This document shows positions 8,589-17,307 of a stretch of 64,000 nucleotides of DNA, piece by piece (position 1 is the first letter of the stretch; every line of letters begins with the position of its first letter). The stretch comes from Zophobihabitans entericus (GTDB lineage Bacteria; Pseudomonadota; Gammaproteobacteria; Enterobacterales; Orbaceae). The position numbers were made by a program, and so were the translations under genes. The notes under the pieces were generated by a model, which was not told where the DNA came from, did not search any database, and saw nothing but the letters and a program-made list of their open reading frames with translations. The stretch spans positions 35,418-99,417 of the forward strand of contig NZ_CP050253.1 in the NCBI RefSeq assembly GCF_011745665.1, given 5' to 3'.

Positions 8589-8772
8589 TTTTCATCCAAC
8601 CCGTTGTTTTTATTATTTAATAGTTTTTATTATTGATTTTGGCCGTAATTATAACATTACTTATACAAAAGTAAAAAAATGGATAGGTATTATTCTTGTT
8701 TTGAAAAGAAATTGAAAAGGTGTTTATTTGCTGAACGCTGGGAGTGTCTTAATTAAAGGAGAATGATAAAAA

Positions 8773-8790
8773 CCCCCAATTAAACCCCCA
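8773..8790 (+). repeat. Copy 1 of the CCCCCAATTAAACCCCCA motif. It lies just outside the island's left junction.
   Basis: Exact 18-mer shared with 17103-17120. There is a near-identical copy at 9095-9112. Confidence 0.7.
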
Positions 8791-9011
8791 AATGATGCAT
8801 CTATTAAGCTGAAAGATGTCTTACTAACTTGGTTAATGGCTTGAGAGCTGTTAGCAAAAGGGATTACTCGTATCATCCTGATACTCGCCCTTTGGGCCGT
8901 TGCGCTGCAACGTTCAAAACTGTTCCCGACAGTTTTGTCAAACCTCCTTCGGAGGTTCTCATCCTCGGTAAACTTCAGGCGTAAAAAAACCTGCATAAAT
9001 GCAGGTTTCTC

Positions 9012-9038
9012 AAAATTGGTCGCGAGAGAGGATTCGAA
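9012..9038. repeat. attL-like direct repeat. It is a partial copy of the tRNA-Pro 3' end and forms the left boundary of the genomic island.
   Basis: aattggtcg-cgagagaggattcgaa matches aattggtcggcgagagaggattcgaa at 17226-17253 with one indel. Confidence 0.7.
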
Positions 9039-9094
9039 TTATTCAATTAACTTATTGTTTTATTTAAATATAAAATAATTAATTTTAGCTAAAA

Positions 9095-9112
9095 CCCCCA
9101 ATAAAACCCCCA
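9095..9112 (+). repeat. Copy 2 of the CCCCCAAT(A/T)AAACCCCCA motif. It lies just inside attL.
   Basis: cccccaataaaaccccca, 17/18 identical to the other two copies. Confidence 0.7.
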
Positions 9113-9173
9113 TTTACTTATTTAATTGAATATTGTGATATAAATCACTCTAAGCGATTAAATAACAGGCAAA

Positions 9174-9386
9174 TTATAGAAGTTCTTTTACATTAACGCT
9201 TAAACCCTTAGCAATAATATTAATCACTTCTAAAGTTGGGTTTCTTATGCCACGCTCAATACCACTAATATAGGTACGATCAAGCCCACACTTATCTGCG
9301 AACGCTTCTTGTGACATTCCCTGCTGTAATCGGAGTTGCCTAACTCTCTGTCCAAAAAGGACTTTTACTTTATCTGACTTTTCCAT
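9174..9386 (-). CDS. XRE-family HTH transcriptional repressor (70 aa), copy 1.
   Basis: Cro/C1-type HTH (LRLQQGMSQEAFADKCGLDRTYISGIERGIRNPTLEVI). About 80% identical to the paralog at 9746-9964. Confidence 0.8.
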   Translation of the reverse strand: MEKSDKVKVLFGQRVRQLRLQQGMSQEAFADKCGLDRTYISGIERGIRNPTLEVINIIAKGLSVNVKELL

Positions 9387-9414
9387 CAGATAAATATCAC
9401 ACTATGTTGATTAT

Positions 9415-9437
9415 TAGACCACGGACTATAAGTCACA
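9415..9437. promoter_or_regulatory. Putative operator (tagaccacggactataagtcaca) upstream of XRE copy 1, in the divergent XRE/Ner control region.
   Basis: The motif contains the palindrome GACTATAAGTC. An almost identical 23-mer recurs upstream of XRE copy 2 at 9993-10015. Confidence 0.5.
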
Positions 9438-9529
9438 TTTTATAAAATTCATGCTATTATGTTACTTATAGTCAACATAGTAAGTTTGACTAGTTAGAGG
9501 ATCTAGCAATTCATTAAGGAGTCATCAAT

Positions 9530-9781
9530 ATGGAAAAAGTAGACTGGCATTCATCAGATATTATTGCAGCATTTAAAAAACTGGATACAAGCCTTGCAGA
9601 GGTATCTCGTGCACAAGGTTATGCACCATCAACCTTAGCAAATGCACTTGTTAGACCATGGCCGAGGGGCGAAAAAATTATTGGGGCTGCTTTAGGGATA
9701 CCACCAGAAGAGATATGGCCGTCCAGATATGCCAGACGGTTAAAGCTAAAACTGAAAAAGCACGTCAAGTTTGACGTTTAA
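9530..9781 (+). CDS. Ner-like (Nlp/SfsB family) DNA-binding protein, divergent from the XRE repressor.
   Basis: DWHSSDIIAAFKKLDTSLAEVSRAQGYAPSTLANALVRPWPRGEKIIGAALGIPPEEIWPSRY closely matches phage Mu Ner and E. coli Nlp. The C-terminal tail of the ORF overlaps the next gene. Confidence 0.8.
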   Translation: MEKVDWHSSDIIAAFKKLDTSLAEVSRAQGYAPSTLANALVRPWPRGEKIIGAALGIPPEEIWPSRYARRLKLKLKKHVKFDV

Positions 9782-9964
9782 GCCATTAGCAATAGTATTA
9801 ATCACTTCGAGCGTAGGGTTTCTGACTCCACGCTCAATACCGCTAATATAGGTACGATCAAGTCCGCATTTATCTGCAAATGCTTCTTGTGACATACCAG
9901 CCTGTAAGCGAAGTTGTTTAACTCGCTGCCCGAAAAGGGACTTTATTTGATCTGCTCTTTTCAT
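9746..9964 (-). CDS. XRE-family HTH transcriptional repressor (72 aa), copy 2. It is a tandem paralog.
   Basis: HTH LRLQAGMSQEAFADKCGLDRTYISGIERGVRNPTLEVI. DNA is ~80% identical to 9174-9386, including the upstream operator. Confidence 0.8.
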   Translation of the reverse strand: MKRADQIKSLFGQRVKQLRLQAGMSQEAFADKCGLDRTYISGIERGVRNPTLEVINTIANGLNVKLDVLFQF

Positions 9965-9992
9965 GAGATCAGTATCAATTAATGATGCTTAT

Positions 9993-10015
9993 CAGACCAC
10001 GGACTATGAGTCACA
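9993..10015. promoter_or_regulatory. Second copy of the putative operator (cagaccacggactatgagtcaca), upstream of XRE copy 2.
   Basis: Near-identical to 9415-9437. Located 29 bp upstream of the XRE start. Confidence 0.5.
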
Positions 10016-10299
10016 AATAACTAATTGTTTTTAATCGCTCTCCTTAATTTTAAGCAGATTTATATGCTTAGAATTAAGGAGACAAATCCCTTAAATTAAT
10101 TTTTAAATTTCATTTTGAATTAATTCTCCTCACCCATTCATCACTTTGTTATCTTAATCATGCACAGAAAAATCACATGACCTGAAAGTGATGCAATAGC
10201 GGTCAATCCCTCTAGCTGTAAGTGTCTCTTGAAAGAACAGCATCACTAATGTGATTGGAGACCTCTTATACATAAACTCAATCAACAGGCGAATTCTGT

Positions 10300-10770
10300 C
10301 TGCTGATTCACATAACCACATTGCTTTTAGCAAATATGTACCCCGTGGTGGCTTCGCTACGTCTGGTGAATGCCGTTAAGACATAACCGGCGTGTGCGTT
10401 GCCACTGAACACGACACCAAGGCGTCACTTTTAAAAGCGGTTAGCGCGAAAAGTGACGCCGCATTCACACACCGTACAAACGCCCTTGTATTCACACTTG
10501 CGGCTAAGTATGCGATTTCTGACACACGCCATTTTGCGTTATTTCAACCATCAATCAATAAGGAGTAAAGCGAATCTGATATCGAGGCAGACATAAATGT
10601 CTGGAGGATGACTTGCGAAAGCAAGCGGCTGCACAGAGTGCACAACCGATACCTCACAACACCTCAACCATTGCCGCTCTGGCGTATCGGTATCATTCGT
10701 TGTATATGGCTGTTTAGCCATGTGTTATTTGCCGTACGCCAGAGAATCAATGTTTTAAGTGAGTAGATAA
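10300..10770. other. GC-rich (~50% against ~35% background), hairpin-rich non-coding block. It is a candidate structured ncRNA or a recombination/replication site.
   Basis: Stop codons occur in all frames. There is a 12-bp perfect stem GGCGTCACTTTT...AAAAGTGACGCC at 10421-10460. Palindrome CAGACATAAATGTCTG is at 10588-10603. Nested stems span 10681-10740. TTCACAC-like repeats are present. Confidence 0.35.
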
Positions 10771-10783
10771 TTAAAGGAGAGTT

Positions 10784-11659
10784 ATGGGAAGTTTAAAAGA
10801 CGAAATGACAAAACTGGCTTATCGGGCTGGTGGGAGCTTTAAAACAGTGAATGGCCGAATCACTATTGCTAAAAGATTGAGTGAGAATTTGTATAGACTA
10901 AATATACAAATACACCATGTTAAGCATTTGAAAGCCAAGCATGTTGTTAACTATATACAAGACCGTTTAACCCAAGGAATAGGTAAACGAACGCTGCAAA
11001 ATGAAATGGCGGCTATTCGTTCTATTCTGGTTCAGGCTGAACGGCATAAATTAGCAGAGTCGCCTATTCTGACTAATCAGGCTTTAGGGCTATCCCAAGC
11101 CAACAGAGACGGCACACATAAGGCTATTTCTGATAGACATTATGAACAAGTATTAATTCAGGCTGTGCAGATTAATAAAGGTTTTGCCTGCGCGCTGGAA
11201 CTCGCTTATCAGATGGGTTTGCGTTCTCAGGAAGCTGTTCAATGCTCACTGTCTTTAACAACATGGTTAACTATGTTAGAAAAAGAACAAACCCGATTAC
11301 CTGTGACGTTTGGCACAAAAGGCAGTAGACCACGAGAGACTCTGGTTCTCAATGCTGAGTTACTTAAACAGACTATCCAAAAAGCGCTAAGGGTAATGGA
11401 AGAACAAAAAGGTAAGTTGATTGATAAACCTGATTTAAAATCGGCTATGGCTTACTGGCGACGAACAGCCATAAAGGTAAATTTAAAAGGGGAATACTCC
11501 CCACATAGCTTACGCTATGCGTGGGCACAAAGGGCTTTACAGCATTACCAAGAAAAAGGCTTTAGTCATAAAGAATCATTGGCTTTAGTTTCTATGGATT
11601 TGGGGCATGGTGATGGGCGTGGGAGATATGTGGAGAGGGTTTATAATTTAATAAAATAA
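10784..11659 (+). CDS. Tyrosine-recombinase-fold protein (291 aa). It is the second recombinase-like gene in the island.
   Basis: Conserved recombinase boxes: GLRSQEA (box I Arg), HSLRYAWA (H-x-x-R box II), and LGHGDGRGRYVERVY (catalytic Tyr). Confidence 0.5.
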   Translation: MGSLKDEMTKLAYRAGGSFKTVNGRITIAKRLSENLYRLNIQIHHVKHLKAKHVVNYIQDRLTQGIGKRTLQNEMAAIRSILVQAERHKLAESPILTNQALGLSQANRDGTHKAISDRHYEQVLIQAVQINKGFACALELAYQMGLRSQEAVQCSLSLTTWLTMLEKEQTRLPVTFGTKGSRPRETLVLNAELLKQTIQKALRVMEEQKGKLIDKPDLKSAMAYWRRTAIKVNLKGEYSPHSLRYAWAQRALQHYQEKGFSHKESLALVSMDLGHGDGRGRYVERVYNLIK

Positions 11660-11791
11660 AATTTTATATATCAGATAATTAAAGAAATTAAGATCATTTT
11701 CCTTAAATATATACGATTAAATAAATTTCATGTAACTTATAACACCATAAGCTCAAATGTATACCGATTATCGTAATCAACACTGTATATA

Positions 11792-12571
11792 ATGCAAGCT
11801 TTTATTTTAGGCTTTGATAATTTCATTAACTATCTGTTTATTAAAATTTCAAAACAAGGGAATAAGATGAGAAAAATTATTGTGACAGATTTAACAAGAT
11901 TCTCCACCGATGAAAAGGTATGTATTGCAGCTATTGATATAAGCACAGGAGAATGTTTTCGTCCTATGCCATATATTAAAAGTGCTAAATGTAAAGCATT
12001 AAAAATACACCCAGGAGCAATCTTCGTTGGTGTTCTTGACTTTAAAAAACCTAAAGAAGCCCCTCATGTTGAAGATGCCAGTTATTCAAAATTAGGTTTT
12101 AGCCGAGCATGCAGTAGTGAGGAATTTAGAATGGTTCTAGAGAATTCTTTAACTAATTCAATCTCTAAAGGATTTGGTTTTACTTTTGAAAAAGGCCAAA
12201 AGCATATTCCTAGCAATCAAAAGGTTCATTGCTCAATAATTACAATTAAAATAAACCCAAAACAACTAAGTATTTTTGAAGATCAGTTTAAAGCAGGTAA
12301 AATCAAAGCCACCTTGATAGATAATGATGGGCAAGTATTTAGCTATCTACCCATAACTGATAGAGGTTTTCACGATTATGCTAAAAAGCACCAAGACAAT
12401 GGAAAACTAAATGAAATTACAGAGTTTATTTCTAATCAGGAGATTATTTACTTAAGGATTGGACTAAGCCGTGCTTATCAATCACCTAATGGTAAGAGTG
12501 GGTATTGGTTACAGATTAATGGTATTTATACATATCCTAATTTTCATGAGGAAATAAGAGCATATGACTAA
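11792..12571 (+). CDS. Hypothetical protein, first gene of a three-gene operon. The likely true start is 11867 (MRKIIVTDL..., 234 aa) with an AAGGGA RBS.
   Basis: No recognisable domains. It is translationally coupled to the downstream DUF488 gene by an ATGA overlap. Confidence 0.55.
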   Translation: MQAFILGFDNFINYLFIKISKQGNKMRKIIVTDLTRFSTDEKVCIAAIDISTGECFRPMPYIKSAKCKALKIHPGAIFVGVLDFKKPKEAPHVEDASYSKLGFSRACSSEEFRMVLENSLTNSISKGFGFTFEKGQKHIPSNQKVHCSIITIKINPKQLSIFEDQFKAGKIKATLIDNDGQVFSYLPITDRGFHDYAKKHQDNGKLNEITEFISNQEIIYLRIGLSRAYQSPNGKSGYWLQINGIYTYPNFHEEIRAYD

Positions 12572-13022
12572 AGAAATAGTAGCTAATATTTATACTATAG
12601 GATTTACAAAAAAAAGTGCTCAAACATTTTTTAATTTTATAAAATTATCAAATGTGGCTACTGTATTAGATGTACGACTAAATAATATTTCTCAACTAGC
12701 AGGATTTGCTAAAAAAGATGATCTTCAGTTTTTCCTGAAAGAACTCTGCAATACAAATTACATGCATTTACCTGAATTAGCCCCAACAAAAGAAATATTA
12801 AATCCTTATCAAAAAGGTGATATTTCTTGGCTTGCTTATGAAGATAAATTTCTAAATTTGATGGCTCAACGTAATGTGGAAAAATCAATATCTTCTAAGA
12901 TATTAGAGAATAGCTGTTTATTATGTAGTGAACATGAACCACATTTCTGTCATAGGCGGTTAGTTGTTGATTATTTAAATGAACATTCAAACCTTAAATT
13001 GAACGTTAGGCATTTATATTAA
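12564..13022 (+). CDS. DUF488-family protein (152 aa).
   Basis: Starts IYTIGFT... Has the C-terminal hallmark CLLCSEHEPHFCHRRLVVDYL, the C-x-E-x-x-P-x-x-CHR motif of DUF488 (YeaO-like). GAGGAAA RBS. Overlaps both neighbouring genes. Confidence 0.7.
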   Translation: MTKEIVANIYTIGFTKKSAQTFFNFIKLSNVATVLDVRLNNISQLAGFAKKDDLQFFLKELCNTNYMHLPELAPTKEILNPYQKGDISWLAYEDKFLNLMAQRNVEKSISSKILENSCLLCSEHEPHFCHRRLVVDYLNEHSNLKLNVRHLY

Positions 13023-13645
13023 TGAATAAAATTTTATTGCTTTACCCAAAATCATTTAAATGTTACTCAAAATTTTTTCGTAAAGTGGAAAAGATTATAA
13101 GTAAGTTAGACCTTGTGACTATATTATTTTTAGAGGATTCTAATAATTTTATTTCCAGATTATCAAAAGAAAGTATGCATATTAAGGAAATAAAAAAATT
13201 ATCAAATTGGTCAATAAATAATATCACACATGCAATTATTTTTGATGATGGTGAAGAGTTTCCAGAAGAGGTAAAACAGATAGAATCTTTAAATATTCCT
13301 CTTCGTTATATTAAAATCGCCATCACTCGGGTTGTAAATATAAAAAATGAAATTGAGTACACCTCAGAAAAAAGTACCTCTACATATGAATATATAGGCA
13401 GAGGATCTTATTGGGGAAATCCTTATTCAATCTATGAAGTAGAAGATCTAGATAAAGGAGAAACCCCTAGAGAAAATGTAATCAGAAAATTCAAATATGA
13501 TTTCGAACATGATTGCTTATTGAATCGAGATAAAAATAAAGTATATGAACTTGCTGGAAAACGTCTAGGTTGCTTTTGTAAACCTGAAGCTTGCCATGGT
13601 GATGTTATCGCTGATTTTTTAAACTCTTGGGATGATGAAAAGTAA
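13022..13645 (+). CDS. Two-domain protein (207 aa): an unknown N-terminal domain plus a C-terminal DUF4326 domain.
   Basis: Carries the DUF4326 signature motifs GNP (YWGNPYS) and CHG (CFCKPEACHGDVIADFL). The start codon overlaps the upstream stop (TAATG). Confidence 0.65.
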   Translation: MNKILLLYPKSFKCYSKFFRKVEKIISKLDLVTILFLEDSNNFISRLSKESMHIKEIKKLSNWSINNITHAIIFDDGEEFPEEVKQIESLNIPLRYIKIAITRVVNIKNEIEYTSEKSTSTYEYIGRGSYWGNPYSIYEVEDLDKGETPRENVIRKFKYDFEHDCLLNRDKNKVYELAGKRLGCFCKPEACHGDVIADFLNSWDDEK

Positions 13646-13729
13646 TTTTAAATTAATAGGATAAAATAAGCACAGTCTTGATTTTAGCTCCAGCTTGCCT
13701 TAGAGAGCACTTTTCAATATTAATTACAT

Positions 13730-14059
13730 TTATAATGTTATAACTATTTGATAACGACCACTCATTTTTTGTGACTTACCCCAAATTATTAATGCATTAT
13801 CACTTGTATTATATTCATAGGCTTGATAATCCCTTGATAAATCAAGATGAAAATTATCTGGGATCAATTCTCCACTTTCCATGAGCTGTATATTGCCACC
13901 ATGGTAGCCATTTCGGATAAACTTGACTGTTGTTTTTTCAAAAGCATTTCTAATTTTACTTTTGTAGTTAATAAATCCTTCAAATTCACAGTTTCCATAT
14001 GAATCTGTTCGTAGATTATTTTGGCTTATAAATTCAGTCATTGCTAATATTGATTTCAT
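13730..14059 (-). CDS. Hypothetical protein (109 aa) immediately downstream of the OLD-family nuclease gene.
   Basis: GAGGAAA Shine-Dalgarno 6 nt upstream of the ATG. Sits 36 bp after the OLD gene stop on the same strand. No recognisable domain. Confidence 0.5.
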   Translation of the reverse strand: MKSILAMTEFISQNNLRTDSYGNCEFEGFINYKSKIRNAFEKTTVKFIRNGYHGGNIQLMESGELIPDNFHLDLSRDYQAYEYNTSDNALIIWGKSQKMSGRYQIVITL

Positions 14060-14095
14060 TCATCTTTCCTCGTTGTAAGGGCATCTTATCCCAAC

Positions 14096-15745
14096 TTAAC
14101 TATCTAGTTTTTCAAGCTCACTAATATCTGTATATAACCCTGAATGAGAGTTATCAATAATAGAGCTTAAGGCATTTCGAAGAAGTTCATACTTAGGAGA
14201 TTCTTCAAAGTGGTCTGAATTTAAGTGTTTCATTAAATTATACGGTTTATCCTTAGATATTGACTCGTTAAAATAGAATCCCTCAAAATCTGGATAATGT
14301 ACAACGGTTTGAACTCTTCCCTCCGTTTGATCTGCTGCCTCTCTGATATTTATATTGATTGTTCTCATTGGGTTTTTACGTCCGCTTTTATCATACTCCG
14401 AGTCAAGATCATGGATAGCTATTGCTGTCGCTTTAAATTGATTAAATATCTTTATAAAAGATGGAATATTAGCCTTTCCTCTACAGTTAATTACACAATG
14501 AGAATCGTTTAAAGATAGTTTATCGATAAGATATTGATATGCTAAATATTCAGTATCACCTTCAACTAAAATAGATTTCTGATAAAAGAAAAATTCATTT
14601 ACTGTAGGGCAGCATCTATTCAGCATTTTTAAATTATCCTTTTCATCATCTGTGAAATTGGCTTTATCTGTTTGAAAGTAATAGATTTTATCAGGGCTAT
14701 TAGACACTTTAATGAGAGTGGTGTGATTTTGTGCTAAATCGATAAATATTGGAGAGTGTGTAGTACAAATAATTTGCCAGCCGTCAACTTCAGCTAGTGC
14801 GTAAATTGCTTTTCGTGCAGCTTTTATAACTGCTGGATGCAAGTTTATTTCAGGTTCATCAATTAATAATATTTTCGGTTTATCACTACTTATCAATTTC
14901 TTACTTTGAATAAATAAATTTTCACTACATAAAGCATTTATTGCTGACCACAAAAATGCTCTCTGAACACCAGATCCTTGACTGGATAGGGACGTTGAAC
15001 ACCCATTACTTTGTATATTGAATTTACTTCCGTCTTTAATTATATCTTCTGTTTTTAACTTCCCAACACCGCAATCAAATGAAACAGAAATACCAGAAAA
15101 AACTTTATTTAACTCACTTTGAATTTTTTCATTAACTTGAGAAATATTACCAGATAGCTCTACTTTGACTTCTTGAGCCAGATCTTCAATTTTTTCAATA
15201 ATATTTGCTAATTTAGAATTATCATTTTTGAGTTTCTCTGACACTTTTTTAGACACTAGATCTTTTACAATCTTTTCTAGGGAGTCGTAATCGTCATTGG
15301 GGTTGATTCTTATTGGAGTTGGTAACCGACTTTGTAATAATGTATCCCAACCTCCAGCCCCTCCTTTTTTCCAATCATTAGTATCTTTACTGAAACTATA
15401 TTTTTGTCCTTTTTCATTAGGTGCTTCCCAACGGACTTGAAACTTAGCACAAGTTCCAAAATTAGGATCATTAGCTAAAACCCACTCTTGACCAATTGTT
15501 TTTTGATCTTCTTCTGTAATATCAACAAAAACACCAGTAATCAAGATAGTATTACTACTATCTTGATTATGAAAATATTCTATACTTAATGCCGACCCCA
15601 TTGATACATACGCTTCGTATGCGTCCAGAATTGTAGACTTACAGCAATTATTTGGTCCAATCAAAACAACAATGTTATCCATCAAAATTGTTACTTCGTC
15701 GGAGATTCCTTTAAAATTAGAAATTAATAATGCAGCAAGTTTCAT
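14096..15745 (-). CDS. OLD-family (overcoming lysogenization defect) ATP-dependent nuclease. It has an ABC-type ATPase (AAA_15/21) plus a C-terminal Toprim domain, and is a class-1 OLD or PARIS-like single-gene form.
   Basis: Walker A is GPNNCCKST, ABC signature is SQGSGVQRAF, Walker B is ILLIDEPEINLHP, and the H-loop is TTHSP. Toprim motifs are ILVEGDTEYLAY and IAIHDLDSEYD. Size (549 aa) matches P2 Old. Confidence 0.8.
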   Translation of the reverse strand: MKLAALLISNFKGISDEVTILMDNIVVLIGPNNCCKSTILDAYEAYVSMGSALSIEYFHNQDSSNTILITGVFVDITEEDQKTIGQEWVLANDPNFGTCAKFQVRWEAPNEKGQKYSFSKDTNDWKKGGAGGWDTLLQSRLPTPIRINPNDDYDSLEKIVKDLVSKKVSEKLKNDNSKLANIIEKIEDLAQEVKVELSGNISQVNEKIQSELNKVFSGISVSFDCGVGKLKTEDIIKDGSKFNIQSNGCSTSLSSQGSGVQRAFLWSAINALCSENLFIQSKKLISSDKPKILLIDEPEINLHPAVIKAARKAIYALAEVDGWQIICTTHSPIFIDLAQNHTTLIKVSNSPDKIYYFQTDKANFTDDEKDNLKMLNRCCPTVNEFFFYQKSILVEGDTEYLAYQYLIDKLSLNDSHCVINCRGKANIPSFIKIFNQFKATAIAIHDLDSEYDKSGRKNPMRTININIREAADQTEGRVQTVVHYPDFEGFYFNESISKDKPYNLMKHLNSDHFEESPKYELLRNALSSIIDNSHSGLYTDISELEKLDS

Positions 15746-15814
15746 TTGGTATCCCTATGAATAAATGTATTATCTAAACAGTATAATAACATGAAGTTTT
15801 TATACTGTTATAAT

Positions 15815-17071
15815 TTATTCAAACTCATAAGGCGCAACAAACCCAACTTTGTTTGCGTCTAAATAATCAGCCCACCATTGCATCATGCGTTTACGCTCAT
15901 CAATAAACTGTGCCTTGTGAATATAAGCAGCTCTGACGCTGTTACGCTCTTGATGGCTCATTTGTCTTTCTATCGCATCTGTTGACCACTGCCCTGACTC
16001 ATTCAGTGCACCACAAGCAATAGTCCTTAAACCATGCCCGCAAATCTCAGTTTGAGTGTCATAACCCAATCTACGCAATGCCTGATTAATCGTATTTTCA
16101 CTCAATGGTCTGTGCGGTCTGCCCAAACAAGGAAAGATCAATTCATTCTCACCTGTCATTTCCTGTACTTCCCTAAACAAGCTCACCGCCTGAGTTGATA
16201 AAGGTACTAAATACTCACTCATCTTTGCGCCACGGTAAGAATATCGAACACCTTCAAGTGGCTCTCTGTTATCTGGAATAATCCACATAGCACGCTCGAG
16301 ATCGATCTCATTCCAACGGGCAAGGCGTAATTCACTTGAACGAACAAACAGGTAAATATTGAGTTTTAGCGCTAATAAGGTGAGTTGTCTGGCTCTGCCT
16401 TGACTATATAGATCGATACGCTCAAAAAGCTCAGGCAAACGCTCTAATGGTAAGGCTGGATAATGCTTTTTCTTTGGTGACTGAACAGCCCCTTGCAGAT
16501 CGAGCGCTGGGTTATATTCAATAATTCCATTTTGCAGAGCATAACGCATAATAGAAGTTAGACAGTATTTCAGGCGAATAACCGTATCAAGATAACCCTT
16601 TCTTTCAACCGCTTTCAAAGCCAGAAGAAGATCCTGAGTTTTTAAGCTCACCACTAGGCGATTTTTTAATACAGGAAAAAGGTAGGTTTCAATTGCCCGA
16701 ACAATGGAATGTGAATAACTTTCAGACCAACCCGATAATTTACCCTGATAAATCCACCATGATCGCGCAGTTTCTTCAAAGCGTTTACCCACTTGTCGAG
16801 CTACTTTTTCTTTTTGTTTTTCAGCTCCGGGATCAATAGATTGGCTGAGTAAGGTTTTAGCCTCTTCACATAGTTTACGTGCGGCAGATAAGGAAACTGT
16901 TGGATAAGCACCATAAGCAAGGCGTTTTTCTTTTCCATCAAAACGGTACTTCTGATACCAGAGTTTCGAACCAGAGGGGTTGATTATAATGTGCAGTCCA
17001 AAACCGTCACTGAGTTTATAGGGCTTGCTTCGAGGCTTGGCATTACGGATAGCAACGTCTGTTAGCGCCAT
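15815..17071 (-). CDS. int: P4-type tyrosine integrase (site-specific recombinase). The probable start is at 17071 (MALTDVAIRNAKP...). The ORF track extends it to 17137.
   Basis: N-terminal DUF4102-like arm-binding region (ALTDVAIRNAKPRSKPYKLSDGFGLHIIINPSGSKLWYQKYRF). C-terminal catalytic domain (…HGLRTIACGAL…, Y in …SVRAAYIHK). AGGAG RBS. Adjacent to the tRNA-Pro 3' end. Confidence 0.9.
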   Translation of the reverse strand: MALTDVAIRNAKPRSKPYKLSDGFGLHIIINPSGSKLWYQKYRFDGKEKRLAYGAYPTVSLSAARKLCEEAKTLLSQSIDPGAEKQKEKVARQVGKRFEETARSWWIYQGKLSGWSESYSHSIVRAIETYLFPVLKNRLVVSLKTQDLLLALKAVERKGYLDTVIRLKYCLTSIMRYALQNGIIEYNPALDLQGAVQSPKKKHYPALPLERLPELFERIDLYSQGRARQLTLLALKLNIYLFVRSSELRLARWNEIDLERAMWIIPDNREPLEGVRYSYRGAKMSEYLVPLSTQAVSLFREVQEMTGENELIFPCLGRPHRPLSENTINQALRRLGYDTQTEICGHGLRTIACGALNESGQWSTDAIERQMSHQERNSVRAAYIHKAQFIDERKRMMQWWADYLDANKVGFVAPYEFE

Positions 17072-17102
17072 TGGGGGTCTCCTGAAAATTGGGCTGTAAA
17101 GA

Positions 17103-17120
17103 CCCCCAATTAAACCCCCA
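17103..17120 (+). repeat. Copy 3 of the CCCCCAATTAAACCCCCA motif. It lies ~32 bp upstream of the integrase start, inside attR.
   Basis: Exact 18-mer identical to 8773-8790. Confidence 0.7.
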
Positions 17121-17230
17121 CATAGTGTGGCTGTCAAAGGTAGTTCATGGACTTTATAGGACGAAGAAGATTTGTAACTTGTTGATTTTTTTTAATCTAA
17201 GGACTTCGCTGGAAGTCCTCGGAAGAGAAT

Positions 17231-17307
17231 TGGTCGGCGAGAGAGGATTCGAACCTCCGACCCACTGGTCCCAAACCAGTTGCGCTACCAAGCTGCGCTA
17301 CTCGCCG
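17231..17307 (-). tRNA. tRNA-Pro (anticodon UGG).
   Basis: The reverse complement folds as a canonical cloverleaf: acceptor CGGCGAG/CTCGCCG, D-stem GCGC, anticodon loop TTTGGGA, T-loop TTCGAAT, 3' ACCA. It is identical to the E. coli proM-type sequence. Confidence 0.95.

What the first reader, a model, noticed from the sequence alone, without database searches (positions are those of the whole stretch)
9012..17253. Compact ~8.2 kb integrative island at tRNA-Pro(UGG) with att direct repeats and defence-type cargo.
The 3' 22-28 nt of tRNA-Pro (aattggtcggcgagagaggattcgaa, 17226-17253) recurs at 9012-9038 with a single-base deletion. The two repeats bracket a segment that starts with a P4-type integrase next to the tRNA. 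The segment also carries an OLD-family nuclease, a second recombinase-like gene, XRE and Ner regulators, and the DUF488/DUF4326 operon. Flanks are core genes (autotransporter on the left, tgt-queA on the right). Size and content fit a defence island or a small phage satellite (P4/PICI-like). No capsid or packaging genes are visible.
Basis: seen in the sequence. Interest (0 to 1): 0.65.

Follow-up and report, generated by a model that had tools for sequence, protein, structure and literature searches.

The report
Small tRNA-Pro integrative defence island
An 8.2 kb mobile island inserted at the end of a proline tRNA gene of the insect-gut bacterium Zophobihabitans entericus carries anti-phage genes in a swappable slot; it is an ordinary kind of element and probably spreads by conjugative mobilisation, not as a phage satellite.

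Summary
The last 23 nt of tRNA-Pro(UGG) plus 3 nt (17228-17253) recur at 9014-9038 with one base missing. The pair brackets 8.2 kb of low-GC DNA, with a P4-type integrase next to the tRNA.

Left of the distal repeat lie the tRNA's own terminator and an RtT-like trailer. A Gilliamella relative has tRNA, terminator and trailer contiguous, with no island.

Between conserved backbone parts lies a 4.2 kb cargo slot (11646-15820). Here it holds a class-1 (P2 Old-like) OLD nuclease, an orphan 109-aa gene and the conserved DuOB/DUF488/mSLOG-DUF4326 cassette. A sister element (integrase 88% identical) has the same backbone but a complete Lamassu system in that slot.

The "second recombinase" belongs to Pfam PF12835, the family of the SGI1 atypical relaxase MpsA. 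This pairing held in all 10 loci examined, including E. coli tRNA islands, the ICE SGI-4 and plasmids.

No capsid, packaging or replication gene is present, so the satellite reading is not supported. An integrative, possibly mobilizable, defence island fits best. No same-species empty site or excised form could be found. It is a new member of a known kind, of moderate interest.

The parts
17231..17307 (-). tRNA-Pro(UGG), intact; integration target
   Evidence: ARAGORN; Rfam tRNA 65.8 bits; the aligned tRNA sequence printed by cmscan is the same as for the Gilliamella L002 tRNA-Pro.
17228..17253 (.). attR core: tRNA T-loop to CCA end plus 3 nt (26 nt)
   Evidence: Exact 17-mer repeat; sequence read.
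9014..9038 (.). attL core: displaced copy of the tRNA 3' end, 25 nt, one G missing
   Evidence: It is followed, in tRNA orientation, by the native terminator.
8983..9011 (-). Native intrinsic terminator of tRNA-Pro (hairpin AAACCTGCA-TTTA-TGCAGGTTT plus a T-run), now separated from the tRNA by the island
   Evidence: Sequence read. The Gilliamella L002 locus has a terminator hairpin at the same place directly after the tRNA.
8849..8980 (-). RtT-like tRNA-trailer element; native flank that marks the outer boundary
   Evidence: Rfam RtT 44.1 bits (gathering score 45), E 2e-7. L002 gives a weaker RtT match at the syntenic position, 22.2 bits; alignment A2.
15815..17071 (-). P4-type tyrosine integrase (418 aa), specific for the tRNA-Pro 3' end
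   Evidence: Pfam Arm-DNA-bind_3, Phage_int_M, Phage_integrase. 100% identical to a Z. entericus protein. The 63%-identical relatives sit next to tRNA-Pro(UGG) wherever the contig reaches the tRNA (L086, L088), and the 88%-identical sister's contig starts inside the tRNA 3' end.
17102..17137 (-). Conserved integrase upstream element: TTGACA (17132-17137), a 17-nt spacer, then GGGGGTTTAATTGGGGG (17102-17120). Putative Pint and/or arm-type site
   Evidence: Conserved in three integrase lineages (alignment A3). The motif is found only upstream of these integrases among 105 loci.
9094..9112 (-). Second copy of the G5-N7-G5 motif (GGGGGTTTTATTGGGGG) 56 nt inside attL; candidate P' arm-type site
   Evidence: 3 copies in the window, 0.03 expected; alignment A4.
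9174..9386 (-). XRE/C-protein-like regulator 1 (70 aa)
   Evidence: Pfam HTH_3 7.8e-18; PADLOC Control_protein 2.4e-24.
9530..9781 (+). Ner-like HTH_35 regulator (83 aa); conserved backbone gene
   Evidence: Pfam HTH_35 1.8e-26. 60-67% identical to HTH_35 genes in the E. coli EFASI islands.
9746..9964 (-). XRE/C-protein-like regulator 2 (72 aa), paralogue of regulator 1
   Evidence: 245-nt duplication at 80% identity, 9193-9437 and 9771-10015; 53 of 70 residues identical.
10570..10744 (+). EFASI structured element (Rfam model 10570-10699) plus a covarying 3' helix extending to about 10744
   Evidence: Rfam RF02957 104.6 bits, gathering score 51.2, E 2e-21. The extra helix 10675-10686/10735-10744 shows UA-to-CG compensatory changes in E. 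coli copies.
10784..11659 (+). MpsA-family (Pfam PF12835 Integrase_1) tyrosine-recombinase-fold protein, 291 aa; candidate atypical relaxase
   Evidence: Pfam Integrase_1 6.6e-54 and Phage_int_SAM_2 6.9e-33. SGI1 MpsA hits the same family (4e-11). BLASTP to MpsA: 24% over 272 aa, E 1e-4. The catalytic R, K, HxxR and H columns are invariant, and a Tyr near the C-terminus is present in all seven sequences.
11646..15820 (.). Swappable cargo slot (4.2 kb, GC 0.302)
   Evidence: Homology to sister element L085 stops at 11645 and resumes at 15821. L085 carries Lamassu (LmuA/LmuC/LmuB) there.
11792..12571 (+). DuOB (dual OB-fold) protein, first gene of the cassette
   Evidence: Pfam DuOB 1.5e-5, below the gathering score. 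A DuOB gene occupies the same position in Aeromonas, Vibrio and Photobacterium cassettes. 55% identical relatives in viral contigs.
12564..13022 (+). DUF488 (DUF488-N3a 'active' subclade) protein
   Evidence: Pfam DUF488 1.3e-21 and DUF488-N3a 2.1e-10; PADLOC PDC-M45C 3.2e-64.
13022..13645 (+). mSLOG-DUF4326 fusion protein
13730..14059 (-). Orphan 109-aa ORF of unknown function
   Evidence: No Pfam, PADLOC or PHROG hit. The only homologue is a Vibrio vulnificus gene lying among many short ORFs and CcdAB pairs (superintegron-like context), not linked to OLD.
14096..15745 (-). Class-1 (P2 Old-like) OLD family ATPase-Toprim nuclease, 549 aa
   Evidence: PADLOC Old 5.2e-82; Pfam AAA_15 and OLD-like_TOPRIM; best solved structure 6P74, an OLD-family endonuclease; no helicase partner next to it.

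Best explanation
This is an integrative genomic island of Zophobihabitans entericus (Orbaceae). A P4-type tyrosine integrase inserted it by site-specific recombination between an element-borne copy of the tRNA-Pro(UGG) 3' end and the chromosomal gene. The tRNA was regenerated at attR. Its original 3' fragment, terminator and RtT-like trailer were pushed 8.2 kb away to attL. The element has a conserved backbone: the integrase with its conserved upstream motif, XRE/Ner/XRE regulators, and an EFASI structured element directly ahead of an MpsA-family (PF12835) recombinase-fold gene. Between the two recombinase genes lies a cargo slot. Here the slot holds a class-1 OLD nuclease, an orphan small gene and the DuOB/DUF488/mSLOG-DUF4326 cassette. 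The island therefore acts as a portable anti-phage gene carrier. Shown: repeats, boundaries, gene content, backbone conservation and cargo swapping. Inferred: the cargo defends against phage, because Old and Lamassu are validated families elsewhere whereas the DuOB cassette is only predicted. Also inferred: the island can still excise. Also inferred: it moves between cells by conjugative mobilisation, with EFASI plus the MpsA-like protein as its transfer module, rather than by phage packaging.
For: Repeat and tRNA. Native terminator and RtT-like element outside attL, and the same order uninterrupted in Gilliamella L002 with no island protein. Low GC of the island and cargo. Integrase family targets tRNA-Pro(UGG) in independent elements and has a conserved upstream motif. 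Sister element L085 has the same backbone (78.7% and 75% nucleotide identity) with the cargo replaced by LmuA/LmuC/LmuB. The integrase, Integrase_1 and Ner-like proteins are 50-67% identical to those of E. coli islands at tRNA-Phe and tRNA-Asn, which carry OLD, AbiE, BREX and other cargo. Defence calls: Old 5e-82 and PDC-M45C 3e-64. The three-gene cassette keeps its order in a small integrase-bearing element next to a Dus-family gene (Vibrio-type), a Photobacterium prophage region and an Aeromonas chromosomal spot. MpsA link. EFASI lies upstream of the PF12835 gene in 10 of 10 loci, including the ICE SGI-4 and plasmids, where the gene heads a leading-region-like block.
Against: No empty-site allele, circular form or second strain of the same species could be examined; only one sample holds these proteins. 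attL carries a 1-nt deletion, which may mean post-integration decay. No recognisable excisionase (AlpA/Xis) was found. No defence function has been shown for the DuOB/DUF488/DUF4326 cassette, and PADLOC matched only one of its three proteins, to a candidate system. The MpsA relationship is distant (22-24% identity). EFASI is not detected upstream of SGI1 mpsA. Some plasmids with the EFASI-PF12835 pair also have a canonical MOBH relaxase. A third copy of the integrase-promoter motif lies outside attL (8772-8790) and is unexplained.
Confidence: 0.8

Rival explanations
1. More specific variant: the island is an integrative mobilizable element (IME). EFASI, perhaps with the conserved inverted repeat 110-150 nt upstream of it, together with the PF12835 protein forms an oriT or sRNA plus atypical-relaxase module like oriT/sgm-sRNA/mpsA of SGI1. 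A co-resident conjugative element would then transfer the excised island, for example an MPF_G ICE of the kind that uses the same tRNA-Pro site in other Orbaceae.
For: PF12835 is the signature a published genomic-island classifier uses for MpsA-type relaxases (PMC10484663). SGI1 MpsA scores 43.5 bits on PF12835 and aligns with the window protein across the catalytic residues. In SGI1 an essential sRNA core lies between oriT and mpsA (PMC9299015), which is the position EFASI occupies here. EFASI and the gene are adjacent in 10 of 10 loci. In SGI-4 and plasmids the pair sits at the head of a leading-region-like block with ArdC-like and methylase genes and STAXI elements. The two 'non-mobilizable' plasmids examined that carry the STAXI and leading-region block have a mating-pore type but no typed relaxase. 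A related integrase heads an ICE at tRNA-Pro.
Against: Identity to MpsA is only 22-24%. No MpsB-like gene follows the PF12835 gene; here the N-terminal domain is fused to it. EFASI is not found in SGI1. pEB102 has a MOBH relaxase as well. No STAXI and no T4SS or coupling-protein gene is in the island. No helper is visible in the 64 kb window. There is no functional test.
Confidence: 0.35
2. Immobile relic: the segment was integrated once, possibly as the two ends of a larger ICE that later lost its conjugation genes. It is now a fixed chromosomal defence locus that no longer excises.
For: 1-nt deletion in the attL core. No recognisable excisionase. The closest more distant integrase relatives head full ICEs. 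EFASI-PF12835 is a normal component of ICE and plasmid backbones. Only one genome is available.
Against: The integrase ORF is full-length, and all three integrase-domain families match above their Pfam thresholds. Its upstream motif is conserved and is duplicated inside the other arm. A sister element with an 88%-identical integrase and a different cargo shows the backbone is still being reshuffled. All ten ORFs are uninterrupted.
Confidence: 0.25
3. Phage satellite (P4-like or PICI-like) that is packaged by a helper phage.
For: P4-type integrase at a tRNA and a Ner-like regulator. E. coli islands with the same backbone carry C4-type and isrK RNAs; from my own knowledge, not checked here, the C4 family includes the immunity RNAs of P1/P7 and P4. 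The OLD gene is related to P2 old.
Against: No primase/helicase (alpha), Sid, Psu, Delta, Epsilon, AlpA, capsid-remodelling, terminase or packaging gene by Pfam or PHROGs. No C4 or isrK RNA in the island. No megablast match in phage genomes. The integrase-promoter motif is absent from viral contigs.
Confidence: 0.04
4. The repeat is a chance or unrelated tRNA fragment, and the genes between are ordinary chromosome.
For: None beyond the 1-nt imperfection.
Against: No shuffle out of 100 gave two copies. The integrase is adjacent. The native terminator and trailer are displaced exactly to the distal repeat. GC drops. The backbone is shared with other elements.
Confidence: 0.01

Closest known systems
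Sister element on Logan contig SRR31341460_10460 (locus L085)
   Same: Integrase 88% identical. Its contig starts inside the same tRNA 3' end and has the same upstream motif. The PF12835 protein is 79% identical and EFASI scores 104.4 bits, in the same relative arrangement.
   Different: The cargo slot holds a complete Lamassu system (LmuA, LmuC, LmuB) instead of OLD, orf109 and the DuOB cassette. The contig is incomplete, so its left end is unknown.
E. coli tRNA-Phe (yqgA/pheV side) and tRNA-Asn islands with an integrase / PF12835 / EFASI / HTH_35 backbone (loci L106-L110, L084, L083)
   Same: P4-type integrase (50-58% identity), PF12835 protein (55-56%), Ner-like HTH_35 (60-67%), EFASI directly upstream of the PF12835 gene, and defence cargo including an OLD-family nuclease, AbiE and BREX.
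   Different: They use other tRNA targets and are much larger. The cargo lies distal to the regulatory module, not between the two recombinase genes. They carry C4 and isrK RNAs and a 156-aa gene that the window lacks. The window has two XRE/C-protein-like genes instead.
Salmonella genomic island 1 (SGI1), an integrative mobilizable element with oriT / sgm-sRNA / mpsA / mpsB (PMC6414798, PMC9299015)
   Same: A site-specific integrative island whose second tyrosine-recombinase-fold protein (MpsA) is in the same Pfam family (PF12835) and shares the catalytic residues. A structured non-coding element lies immediately upstream of that gene.
   Different: SGI1 integrates in trmE, is about 43 kb, and carries a replicon, T4SS subunits and resistance genes. 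MpsA is only 22-24% identical and needs a separate MpsB. Rfam detects no EFASI upstream of mpsA. Mobilisation of the window island is untested.
P4-like satellites with defence hotspots (recalled from Rousset et al. 2022; not read here)
   Same: P4-type integrase at a tRNA 3' end, a compact element, and a variable slot that exchanges anti-phage systems between otherwise conserved backbones.
   Different: None of the P4 hallmark genes (alpha primase-helicase, sid, psu, delta, epsilon) and no CI/C4 RNA are present.
ICE SGI-4 and MPF_G/MPF_F plasmids carrying STAXI / EFASI / PF12835 (loci L122-L126)
   Same: The EFASI plus PF12835 gene pair (47-56% protein identity).
   Different: These are 70-270 kb conjugative or plasmid replicons, most examined ones with STAXI copies, leading-region genes and mating-pore genes, all of which the island lacks.

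Membership tests
tRNA-integrated genomic island (tyrosine-integrase type) | Direct repeat made of the 3' end of a tRNA gene, bracketing the element | tested here: met
   25/26-nt repeat at 9014-9038 and 17228-17253; 17-mer exact; 0 of 100 shuffles.
tRNA-integrated genomic island (tyrosine-integrase type) | Intact tyrosine integrase at the tRNA-proximal end | tested here: met
   418-aa ORF with Arm-DNA-bind_3, Phage_int_M and Phage_integrase domains, 160 nt from the tRNA.
tRNA-integrated genomic island (tyrosine-integrase type) | Unoccupied site in related genomes that ends at the repeat | tested here: inconclusive
   Cross-genus only. Gilliamella L002 has tRNA-Pro, terminator and RtT-like trailer contiguous and no island protein. 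No second Zophobihabitans genome was available, and the empty-junction scan of metagenomes gave 0 hits.
tRNA-integrated genomic island (tyrosine-integrase type) | Excision to a circular attP form | not testable with these tools
   Needs PCR or long reads on the strain.
Defence island / defence-carrying mobile element | At least one gene of an experimentally validated anti-phage family | tested here: met
   PADLOC Old model 5.2e-82 over residues 1-472. The sister element carries full Lamassu in the same slot.
Defence island / defence-carrying mobile element | Variable cargo in a conserved backbone (hotspot behaviour) | tested here: met
   Window 11646-15820 against L085 1442-4990: unrelated content between homologous flanks.
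Class 1 OLD nuclease (P2 Old type) | Stand-alone ABC-type ATPase plus Toprim protein, with no adjacent UvrD/helicase (class 2), retron or AriB partner | tested here: met
   AAA_15 + OLD-like_TOPRIM. The best PADLOC model is Old, not GajA or AriA. The best solved structure is 6P74, deposited as an OLD-family endonuclease; its class-1 assignment is from my own knowledge. The neighbours are the integrase and an unrelated 109-aa ORF.
P4-like satellite | Alpha primase-helicase, Sid, Psu, Delta, Epsilon and AlpA in addition to the integrase; CI (C4-type) RNA | tested here: not met
   No such Pfam or PHROG hits in any of the 10 ORFs. No C4 hit in an E<=1 Rfam scan.
PICI / cfPICI | Pri-rep replication module, packaging or capsid-redirection genes (terS, ppi, cpm, or capsid genes) | tested here: not met
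   No replication, terminase or capsid hits.
Integrative mobilizable element (IME), SGI1-like mobilisation type | MpsA-family (PF12835) atypical relaxase | tested here: met
   PF12835 6.6e-54. SGI1 MpsA is in the same family. Catalytic R, K, HxxR and H columns are invariant, and a C-terminal Tyr is present in all seven sequences. Membership is at family level only, with 22-24% identity.
Integrative mobilizable element (IME), SGI1-like mobilisation type | Functional oriT and helper-dependent transfer | not testable with these tools
   Candidates only: EFASI at 10570-10744 and the inverted repeat at 10421-10460.
Integrative mobilizable element (IME), SGI1-like mobilisation type | Separate MpsB auxiliary protein downstream of mpsA | tested here: not met
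   The next gene is the DuOB cargo gene. Here a Phage_int_SAM_2 domain is fused to the N-terminus.
EFASI RNA motif (Rfam RF02957) | Score above the Rfam gathering threshold over the full model | tested here: met
   104.6 bits against 51.2; model positions 1-133 of 133.
EFASI RNA motif (Rfam RF02957) | Location upstream of an integrase-type gene, often downstream of STAXI (Rfam description quoted in PMC12370729) | tested here: met
   85 nt upstream of the PF12835 gene. STAXI is absent here but present in the ICE and plasmid copies L122-L125. The host is Orbaceae, outside the Enterobacteriaceae range given for the family.
DuOB / DUF488-N3a / mSLOG-DUF4326 three-gene system (Pfam families; prediction recalled from Burroughs & Aravind 2023, which could not be read) | All three genes adjacent, in this order, on one strand | tested here: met
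   11792-13645, with overlapping or abutting ORFs. The same order occurs in Aeromonas, Vibrio and Photobacterium loci, and all three proteins are matched in that order in viral contigs L111 and L113.
DuOB / DUF488-N3a / mSLOG-DUF4326 three-gene system (Pfam families; prediction recalled from Burroughs & Aravind 2023, which could not be read) | Demonstrated anti-phage activity | not testable with these tools
   Association only: a PADLOC candidate PDC-M45C hit for DUF488, carriage on mobile elements, and a slot shared with Lamassu.

The most novel reading that the evidence does not exclude
EFASI, catalogued since 2017 as an sRNA of unknown function, may not be a free-standing regulatory RNA. 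It may be the cis element (oriT, or an sgm-sRNA-like relaxosome RNA) of a self-contained transfer module whose enzyme is the adjacent PF12835 MpsA-family tyrosine recombinase. If so, this two-part module would make small defence islands, such as this 8.2 kb one, conjugatively mobilizable across Enterobacterales and Orbales. It could also be the missing relaxase of ICEs and plasmids that typing tools call 'non-mobilizable' despite their having a mating pore.
Probability: 0.3. Interest if true: 0.65.

Novelty: new member of a known kind. Interest (0 to 1): 0.4.

Why it matters
tRNA-borne islands that shuttle anti-phage systems are well known, so the island itself is not surprising. Three things give it some value.

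- It is a very compact natural example (10 genes), and a sister element shows a clean cargo swap: OLD plus the DuOB cassette against Lamassu. This places the still unvalidated DuOB/DUF488/mSLOG-DUF4326 cassette in a proven defence slot and makes it a good candidate for testing.
- It extends the EFASI-PF12835 pair to Orbaceae. The pair is tightly coupled in 10 of 10 loci across islands, an ICE and plasmids, and the protein is a relative of the SGI1 relaxase MpsA. Together these give a concrete, testable hypothesis for an RNA motif of unknown function.
- It shows that gut symbionts of insects share island backbones with enteric bacteria.

Tried and rejected
- Same-species empty site: an exact-protein look-up of Tgt found nothing. 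Look-ups of the integrase and of a neighbouring peptidase found only one sample, 100% identical to the window. A metagenome scan for the predicted empty junction gave 0 hits.
- My second metagenome scan, for the integrase-promoter motif, used the wrong spacer length (5 N instead of 6). Its 0 hits are therefore uninformative. The corrected pattern gave 0 hits in viral contigs.
- Megablast of the island against plasmids and phages found no match.
- Satellite reading: rejected on gene content.
- The 109-aa ORF as a partner of OLD: rejected. Its only homologue is a stand-alone Vibrio vulnificus gene in a superintegron-like context.
- STAXI, C4 or isrK in the island: not found.
- EFASI upstream of SGI1 mpsA: not found.
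- Tandem-island explanation for the third motif copy at 8772: alignment shows only the 19-27 nt motif is shared, and no further tRNA fragment exists in the window. It remains unexplained.
- Burroughs & Aravind 2023, the source of the DuOB, mSLOG and DUF488-N3a families, is not held. What I say about its predictions is from memory.
- SGI1 was not in the E. coli genome collection. It was found via a knockout-primer sequence in a Salmonella record of the plasmid collection.

Full report
OBSERVATION. The window has one tRNA gene, tRNA-Pro(UGG), at 17231-17307 on the minus strand. The 17-mer GCGAGAGAGGATTCGAA occurs exactly twice, at 9022-9038 and 17237-17253. With up to three mismatches allowed there are still only these two copies, and no shuffle out of 100 gave two. 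Read directly, the repeat is AATTGGTC-GCGAGAGAGGATTCGAA (9014-9038) against AATTGGTCGGCGAGAGAGGATTCGAA (17228-17253).

BOUNDARIES AND NATIVE FLANK. Read in the tRNA's orientation, the distal repeat is followed at once by a canonical intrinsic terminator (hairpin plus T-run, 9011-8983). Next comes a 132-nt element that matches the Rfam RtT tRNA-trailer family at 44.1 bits (gathering score 45; E 2e-7 in a local search). The closest genome locus I could obtain is a Gilliamella MAG whose Tgt is 89% identical (L002). It has tRNA-Pro, a terminator hairpin and a weaker RtT-like match (22 bits) in one uninterrupted run. None of the ten island proteins is encoded within 10 kb of it. So the island sits exactly between the tRNA and its original trailing sequences, as integration at the tRNA 3' end predicts. 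GC is 0.352 for the island (0.302 in the cargo part) against 0.405 for the rest of the window. Its core status was not shown.

ORGANISM. The integrase is 100% identical to a protein of Zophobihabitans entericus (Orbaceae), on a 2.63 Mb contig. Only one other assembly, a Logan assembly of SRR11341694, carries the island, and it is 100% identical over 11.4 kb. Because of this rarity, no same-species empty site could be examined.

GENE CONTENT, listed from the tRNA side:
- A P4-type integrase at 15815-17071. Its real start is the ATG at 17071.
- A 549-aa OLD-family ATPase-Toprim nuclease at 14096-15745. Its best PADLOC model is 'Old' (5e-82) and its best solved relative is the OLD-family endonuclease 6P74. 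It has no helicase partner, so it is class 1.
- A 109-aa orphan ORF at 13730-14059.
- On the other strand, a tight operon: DuOB (11792-12571), DUF488-N3a (12564-13022; PADLOC candidate PDC-M45C, 3e-64) and mSLOG-DUF4326 (13022-13645).
- A 291-aa protein with Phage_int_SAM_2 and Integrase_1 (PF12835) domains at 10784-11659.
- Two XRE regulators that resemble restriction-modification controller proteins (2e-24), at 9174-9386 and 9746-9964. They arose by a 245-nt duplication and flank a Ner-like HTH_35 gene at 9530-9781.
- No protein has a capsid, terminase, packaging, primase or helicase hit in Pfam or PHROGs.

A full-length match to the Rfam family EFASI lies at 10570-10699 (104.6 bits, gathering score 51.2, E 2e-21), 85 nt upstream of the PF12835 gene on the same strand. 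Rfam describes EFASI as an Enterobacteriaceae motif of unknown function that is frequently near STAXI motifs and upstream of integrase genes (quoted in PMC12370729).

RELATED ELEMENTS. A Logan contig (L085) encodes an integrase 88% identical to this one. It is homologous to the window from the tRNA fragment through the integrase (78.7% nucleotide identity), and again through the PF12835 gene and EFASI (75%). Everything between is different: three genes that PADLOC identifies as a complete Lamassu system, LmuA 1e-83, LmuC 7e-47 and LmuB 8e-132. Window 11646-15820 is therefore a cargo slot that exchanges defence systems within a conserved backbone. Integrases 63% identical head an ICE with MPF_G-type transfer genes. 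On the two contigs that reach that far (L086, L088) they lie next to tRNA-Pro(UGG). All these integrases share an upstream element, TTTGACAGCCAC-N6-TGGGGGTnTAATTGGGGGT. Among 105 fetched loci the G5-N7-G5 motif occurs only there.

In E. coli, integrases 50-58% identical sit at tRNA-Phe (next to yqgA) or tRNA-Asn, in islands that contain the same backbone trio. These are the PF12835 protein (55-56% identical), the Ner-like HTH_35 (60-67%) and EFASI (108-119 bits) directly upstream of the PF12835 gene. Their cargo includes an OLD-family nuclease, AbiE, TerB and BREX genes, a PAAR toxin and DUF4297. The E. coli versions also carry C4 and isrK RNAs, which the Zophobihabitans island lacks.

THE SECOND RECOMBINASE. 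A published genomic-island classifier uses PF12835 as its signature for 'INT_DTR-like' proteins, meaning the atypical tyrosine-recombinase-type relaxase MpsA of SGI1 (PMC10484663). I tested this link directly. A knockout-primer sequence from the supplement of PMC6414798 located SGI1 in a Salmonella record. Its MpsA (321 aa) hits PF12835 at 43.5 bits (gathering score 23). It aligns with the window protein over 272 residues (24% identity, E 1e-4). The Arg, Lys, His-x-x-Arg and His columns are invariant in the alignment, and a Tyr near the C-terminus is present in all seven sequences.

In SGI1 the order is oriT, then the core of an essential small RNA (sgm-sRNA), then mpsA and mpsB (PMC6414798, PMC9299015). 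Here the order is a conserved inverted repeat, then EFASI, then the PF12835 gene. The inverted repeat is at 10421-10460, and 30 nt around its second arm are 100% conserved in L085.

EFASI lies 85-115 nt upstream of the PF12835 gene in all 10 loci examined. These are the window, L085, four E. coli islands, the excised ICE SGI-4 and four plasmids. In SGI-4 and the pEB102-type plasmids the pair is flanked by STAXI elements and heads a leading-region-like block with ArdC-like, DUF1281 and N6-methylase genes. Of 50 plasmids with the gene, MOB-suite types 37 as 'non-mobilizable'; the four of these I examined all have a typed mating pore but no typed relaxase.

Against a relaxase role:
- Identity to MpsA is low.
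- There is no separate MpsB.
- Rfam detects no EFASI in SGI1.
- pEB102 also has a MOBH relaxase.

An alignment of five EFASI regions shows that the segment the Rfam model leaves unpaired (CGCTCTGGCGTA, 10675-10686) pairs with a downstream complement (10735-10744). E. coli copies carry UA-to-CG compensatory changes in this helix. The structured element therefore extends to within about 40 nt of the start codon.

CARGO. The mSLOG-DUF4326 protein has at least 1189 homologous clusters, about 60% identical across Vibrio, Photobacterium, Aeromonas, Pseudoalteromonas and others. The three-gene order DuOB, DUF488-N3a, mSLOG-DUF4326 is kept in three settings. One is an Aeromonas chromosomal spot after the succinyl-CoA ligase genes. 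The second is a small element on metagenome and Logan contigs, whose protein cluster a source names Vibrio cholerae, bounded by a tyrosine integrase next to a Dus-family gene. The third is a Photobacterium region with prophage genes; viral contigs also carry the genes. That is the patchy, mobile-element-borne pattern of conflict systems.

My inference, at low confidence, is as follows. The SLOG domain binds a nucleotide-derived ligand or a nucleic-acid end. The two rhodanese-phosphatase-fold enzymes (DUF488, DUF4326) act on ribose-phosphate or DNA/RNA termini. DuOB supplies single-strand binding. Nothing here shows anti-phage activity. The 109-aa ORF has a single homologous cluster, a stand-alone Vibrio vulnificus gene lying among many short ORFs and CcdAB pairs (a superintegron-like context), so it is not an OLD partner.

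HOW IT MOST LIKELY WORKS.
- Shown: a site-specific integrative element at the tRNA-Pro 3' end, made of a conserved backbone plus an exchangeable defence slot.
- Inferred (likely): the integrase binds the core and the G5-N7-G5 motifs found in both arms (17102-17120 overlapping its own putative promoter, and 9094-9112) to integrate and excise. The XRE/Ner genes control this. OLD, and probably the DuOB cassette, protect the host against phage.
- Inferred (about one in three): after excision the island is mobilised by a conjugative helper, through EFASI and the MpsA-like protein.
- Not supported: packaging as a phage satellite.

UNEXPLAINED. A third perfect copy of the integrase-promoter motif (ACCCCCAATTAAACCCCCA, 8772-8790) lies outside attL, beyond the native terminator and RtT element and 183 nt upstream of the autotransporter gene. 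Only the motif itself is shared with the other copies. It may be a scar of an earlier related element, but no second tRNA fragment exists in the window. The origin of the 1-nt deletion in attL is also open: an imperfect attP core or later decay.

VERDICT. The 'integrative island with defence cargo' reading is supported, and the 'satellite' alternative is not. This is a new member of a known kind, namely tRNA-integrated defence-carrying islands that share a backbone with E. coli tRNA-Phe and tRNA-Asn islands. Interest is moderate and rests mainly on two points: the EFASI/MpsA-family link, and the placement of the DuOB/DUF488/DUF4326 cassette in a slot that elsewhere holds Lamassu.

Noticed in passing
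window 8849-8980 (-): An RtT-like tRNA-trailer element (Rfam RtT 44.1 bits, just under the gathering score of 45; it also matches Aggregatibacter sRNA 22 at 33 bits) lies downstream of the displaced tRNA-Pro terminator. A weaker syntenic match exists in Gilliamella L002 at 11327-11454.
   Followed up: partly
window 8772-8790: A third perfect copy of the integrase-upstream motif ACCCCCAATTAAACCCCCA lies outside attL, upstream of the autotransporter gene. Among 105 loci the motif is otherwise found only in front of tRNA-Pro-type integrases. It may be a scar of an earlier element; unexplained.
   Followed up: partly
window 10675-10686 with 10735-10744: The EFASI segment drawn as unpaired in Rfam pairs with a downstream complement. 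E. coli copies show compensatory UA-to-CG changes (alignment A5), and a small covarying hairpin lies in between. The motif seems about 60 nt longer than the Rfam model.
   Followed up: partly
window 10421-10432 / 10449-10460: A perfect 12-bp inverted repeat (GGCGTCACTTTT / AAAAGTGACGCC) lies 110-150 nt upstream of EFASI. Thirty nt around the second arm are 100% conserved in the sister element, whose contig ends there. It is a candidate oriT-type or operator site.
   Followed up: no
window 10039-10082: A near-perfect AT-rich palindrome (21-nt arms, 90% complementary, 2-nt loop) lies just upstream of the second XRE gene. It gave a sub-threshold '23S-methyl' Rfam hit that is probably only a hairpin.
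   Followed up: no
window 9193-9437 and 9771-10015: A 245-nt duplication (80% identity) produced two XRE genes (53 of 70 residues identical) that flank the Ner-like gene. Both resemble restriction-modification controller (C) proteins (PADLOC Control_protein about 1e-22 to 1e-24), although no restriction-modification system is present.
   Followed up: partly
window 13730-14059 (-); loci L102-L105: The orphan 109-aa ORF has a single homologous cluster in 5.8 billion protein clusters: a Vibrio vulnificus gene (55% identity) lying among many short ORFs and CcdAB pairs, a superintegron-like context.
   Followed up: yes
loci L098-L100, L101, L094-L097: The DuOB/DUF488/mSLOG-DUF4326 cassette occurs in three other settings: a small element bounded by a tyrosine integrase next to a Dus-family gene (protein cluster named Vibrio cholerae by a source), a Photobacterium kishitanii region with lambda-P/ANT/pRha prophage genes, and directly after the succinyl-CoA ligase genes in Aeromonas.
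   Followed up: partly
loci L086-L093: An ICE with MPF_G-type transfer genes (TraG-D_C, RAQPRD, DUF3262, DUF2976 and others) is headed by an integrase 63% identical to the island's. On two contigs it lies next to tRNA-Pro(UGG). It recurs on more than 20 metagenome and SRA contigs and is a possible helper type.
   Followed up: partly
loci L122 (pSGI4), L123, L124, L126: An ICE and plasmids that carry the EFASI-PF12835 pair are typed 'non-mobilizable' by MOB-suite although a mating-pore type (MPF_F or MPF_G) is called. This fits an unrecognised relaxase.
   Followed up: partly
loci L083, L084, L106, L109: E. coli islands with the same backbone carry isrK and C4-type RNAs upstream of a 156-aa gene and the HTH_35 gene. 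These RNAs are absent from the window.
   Followed up: partly
window 17196-17219: The regenerated tRNA-Pro is followed on its own strand by a hairpin (AGGACTTC-cagc-GAAGTCCT) and then an A-run rather than a T-run. The tRNA now lacks a canonical terminator before the integrase promoter region.
   Followed up: no
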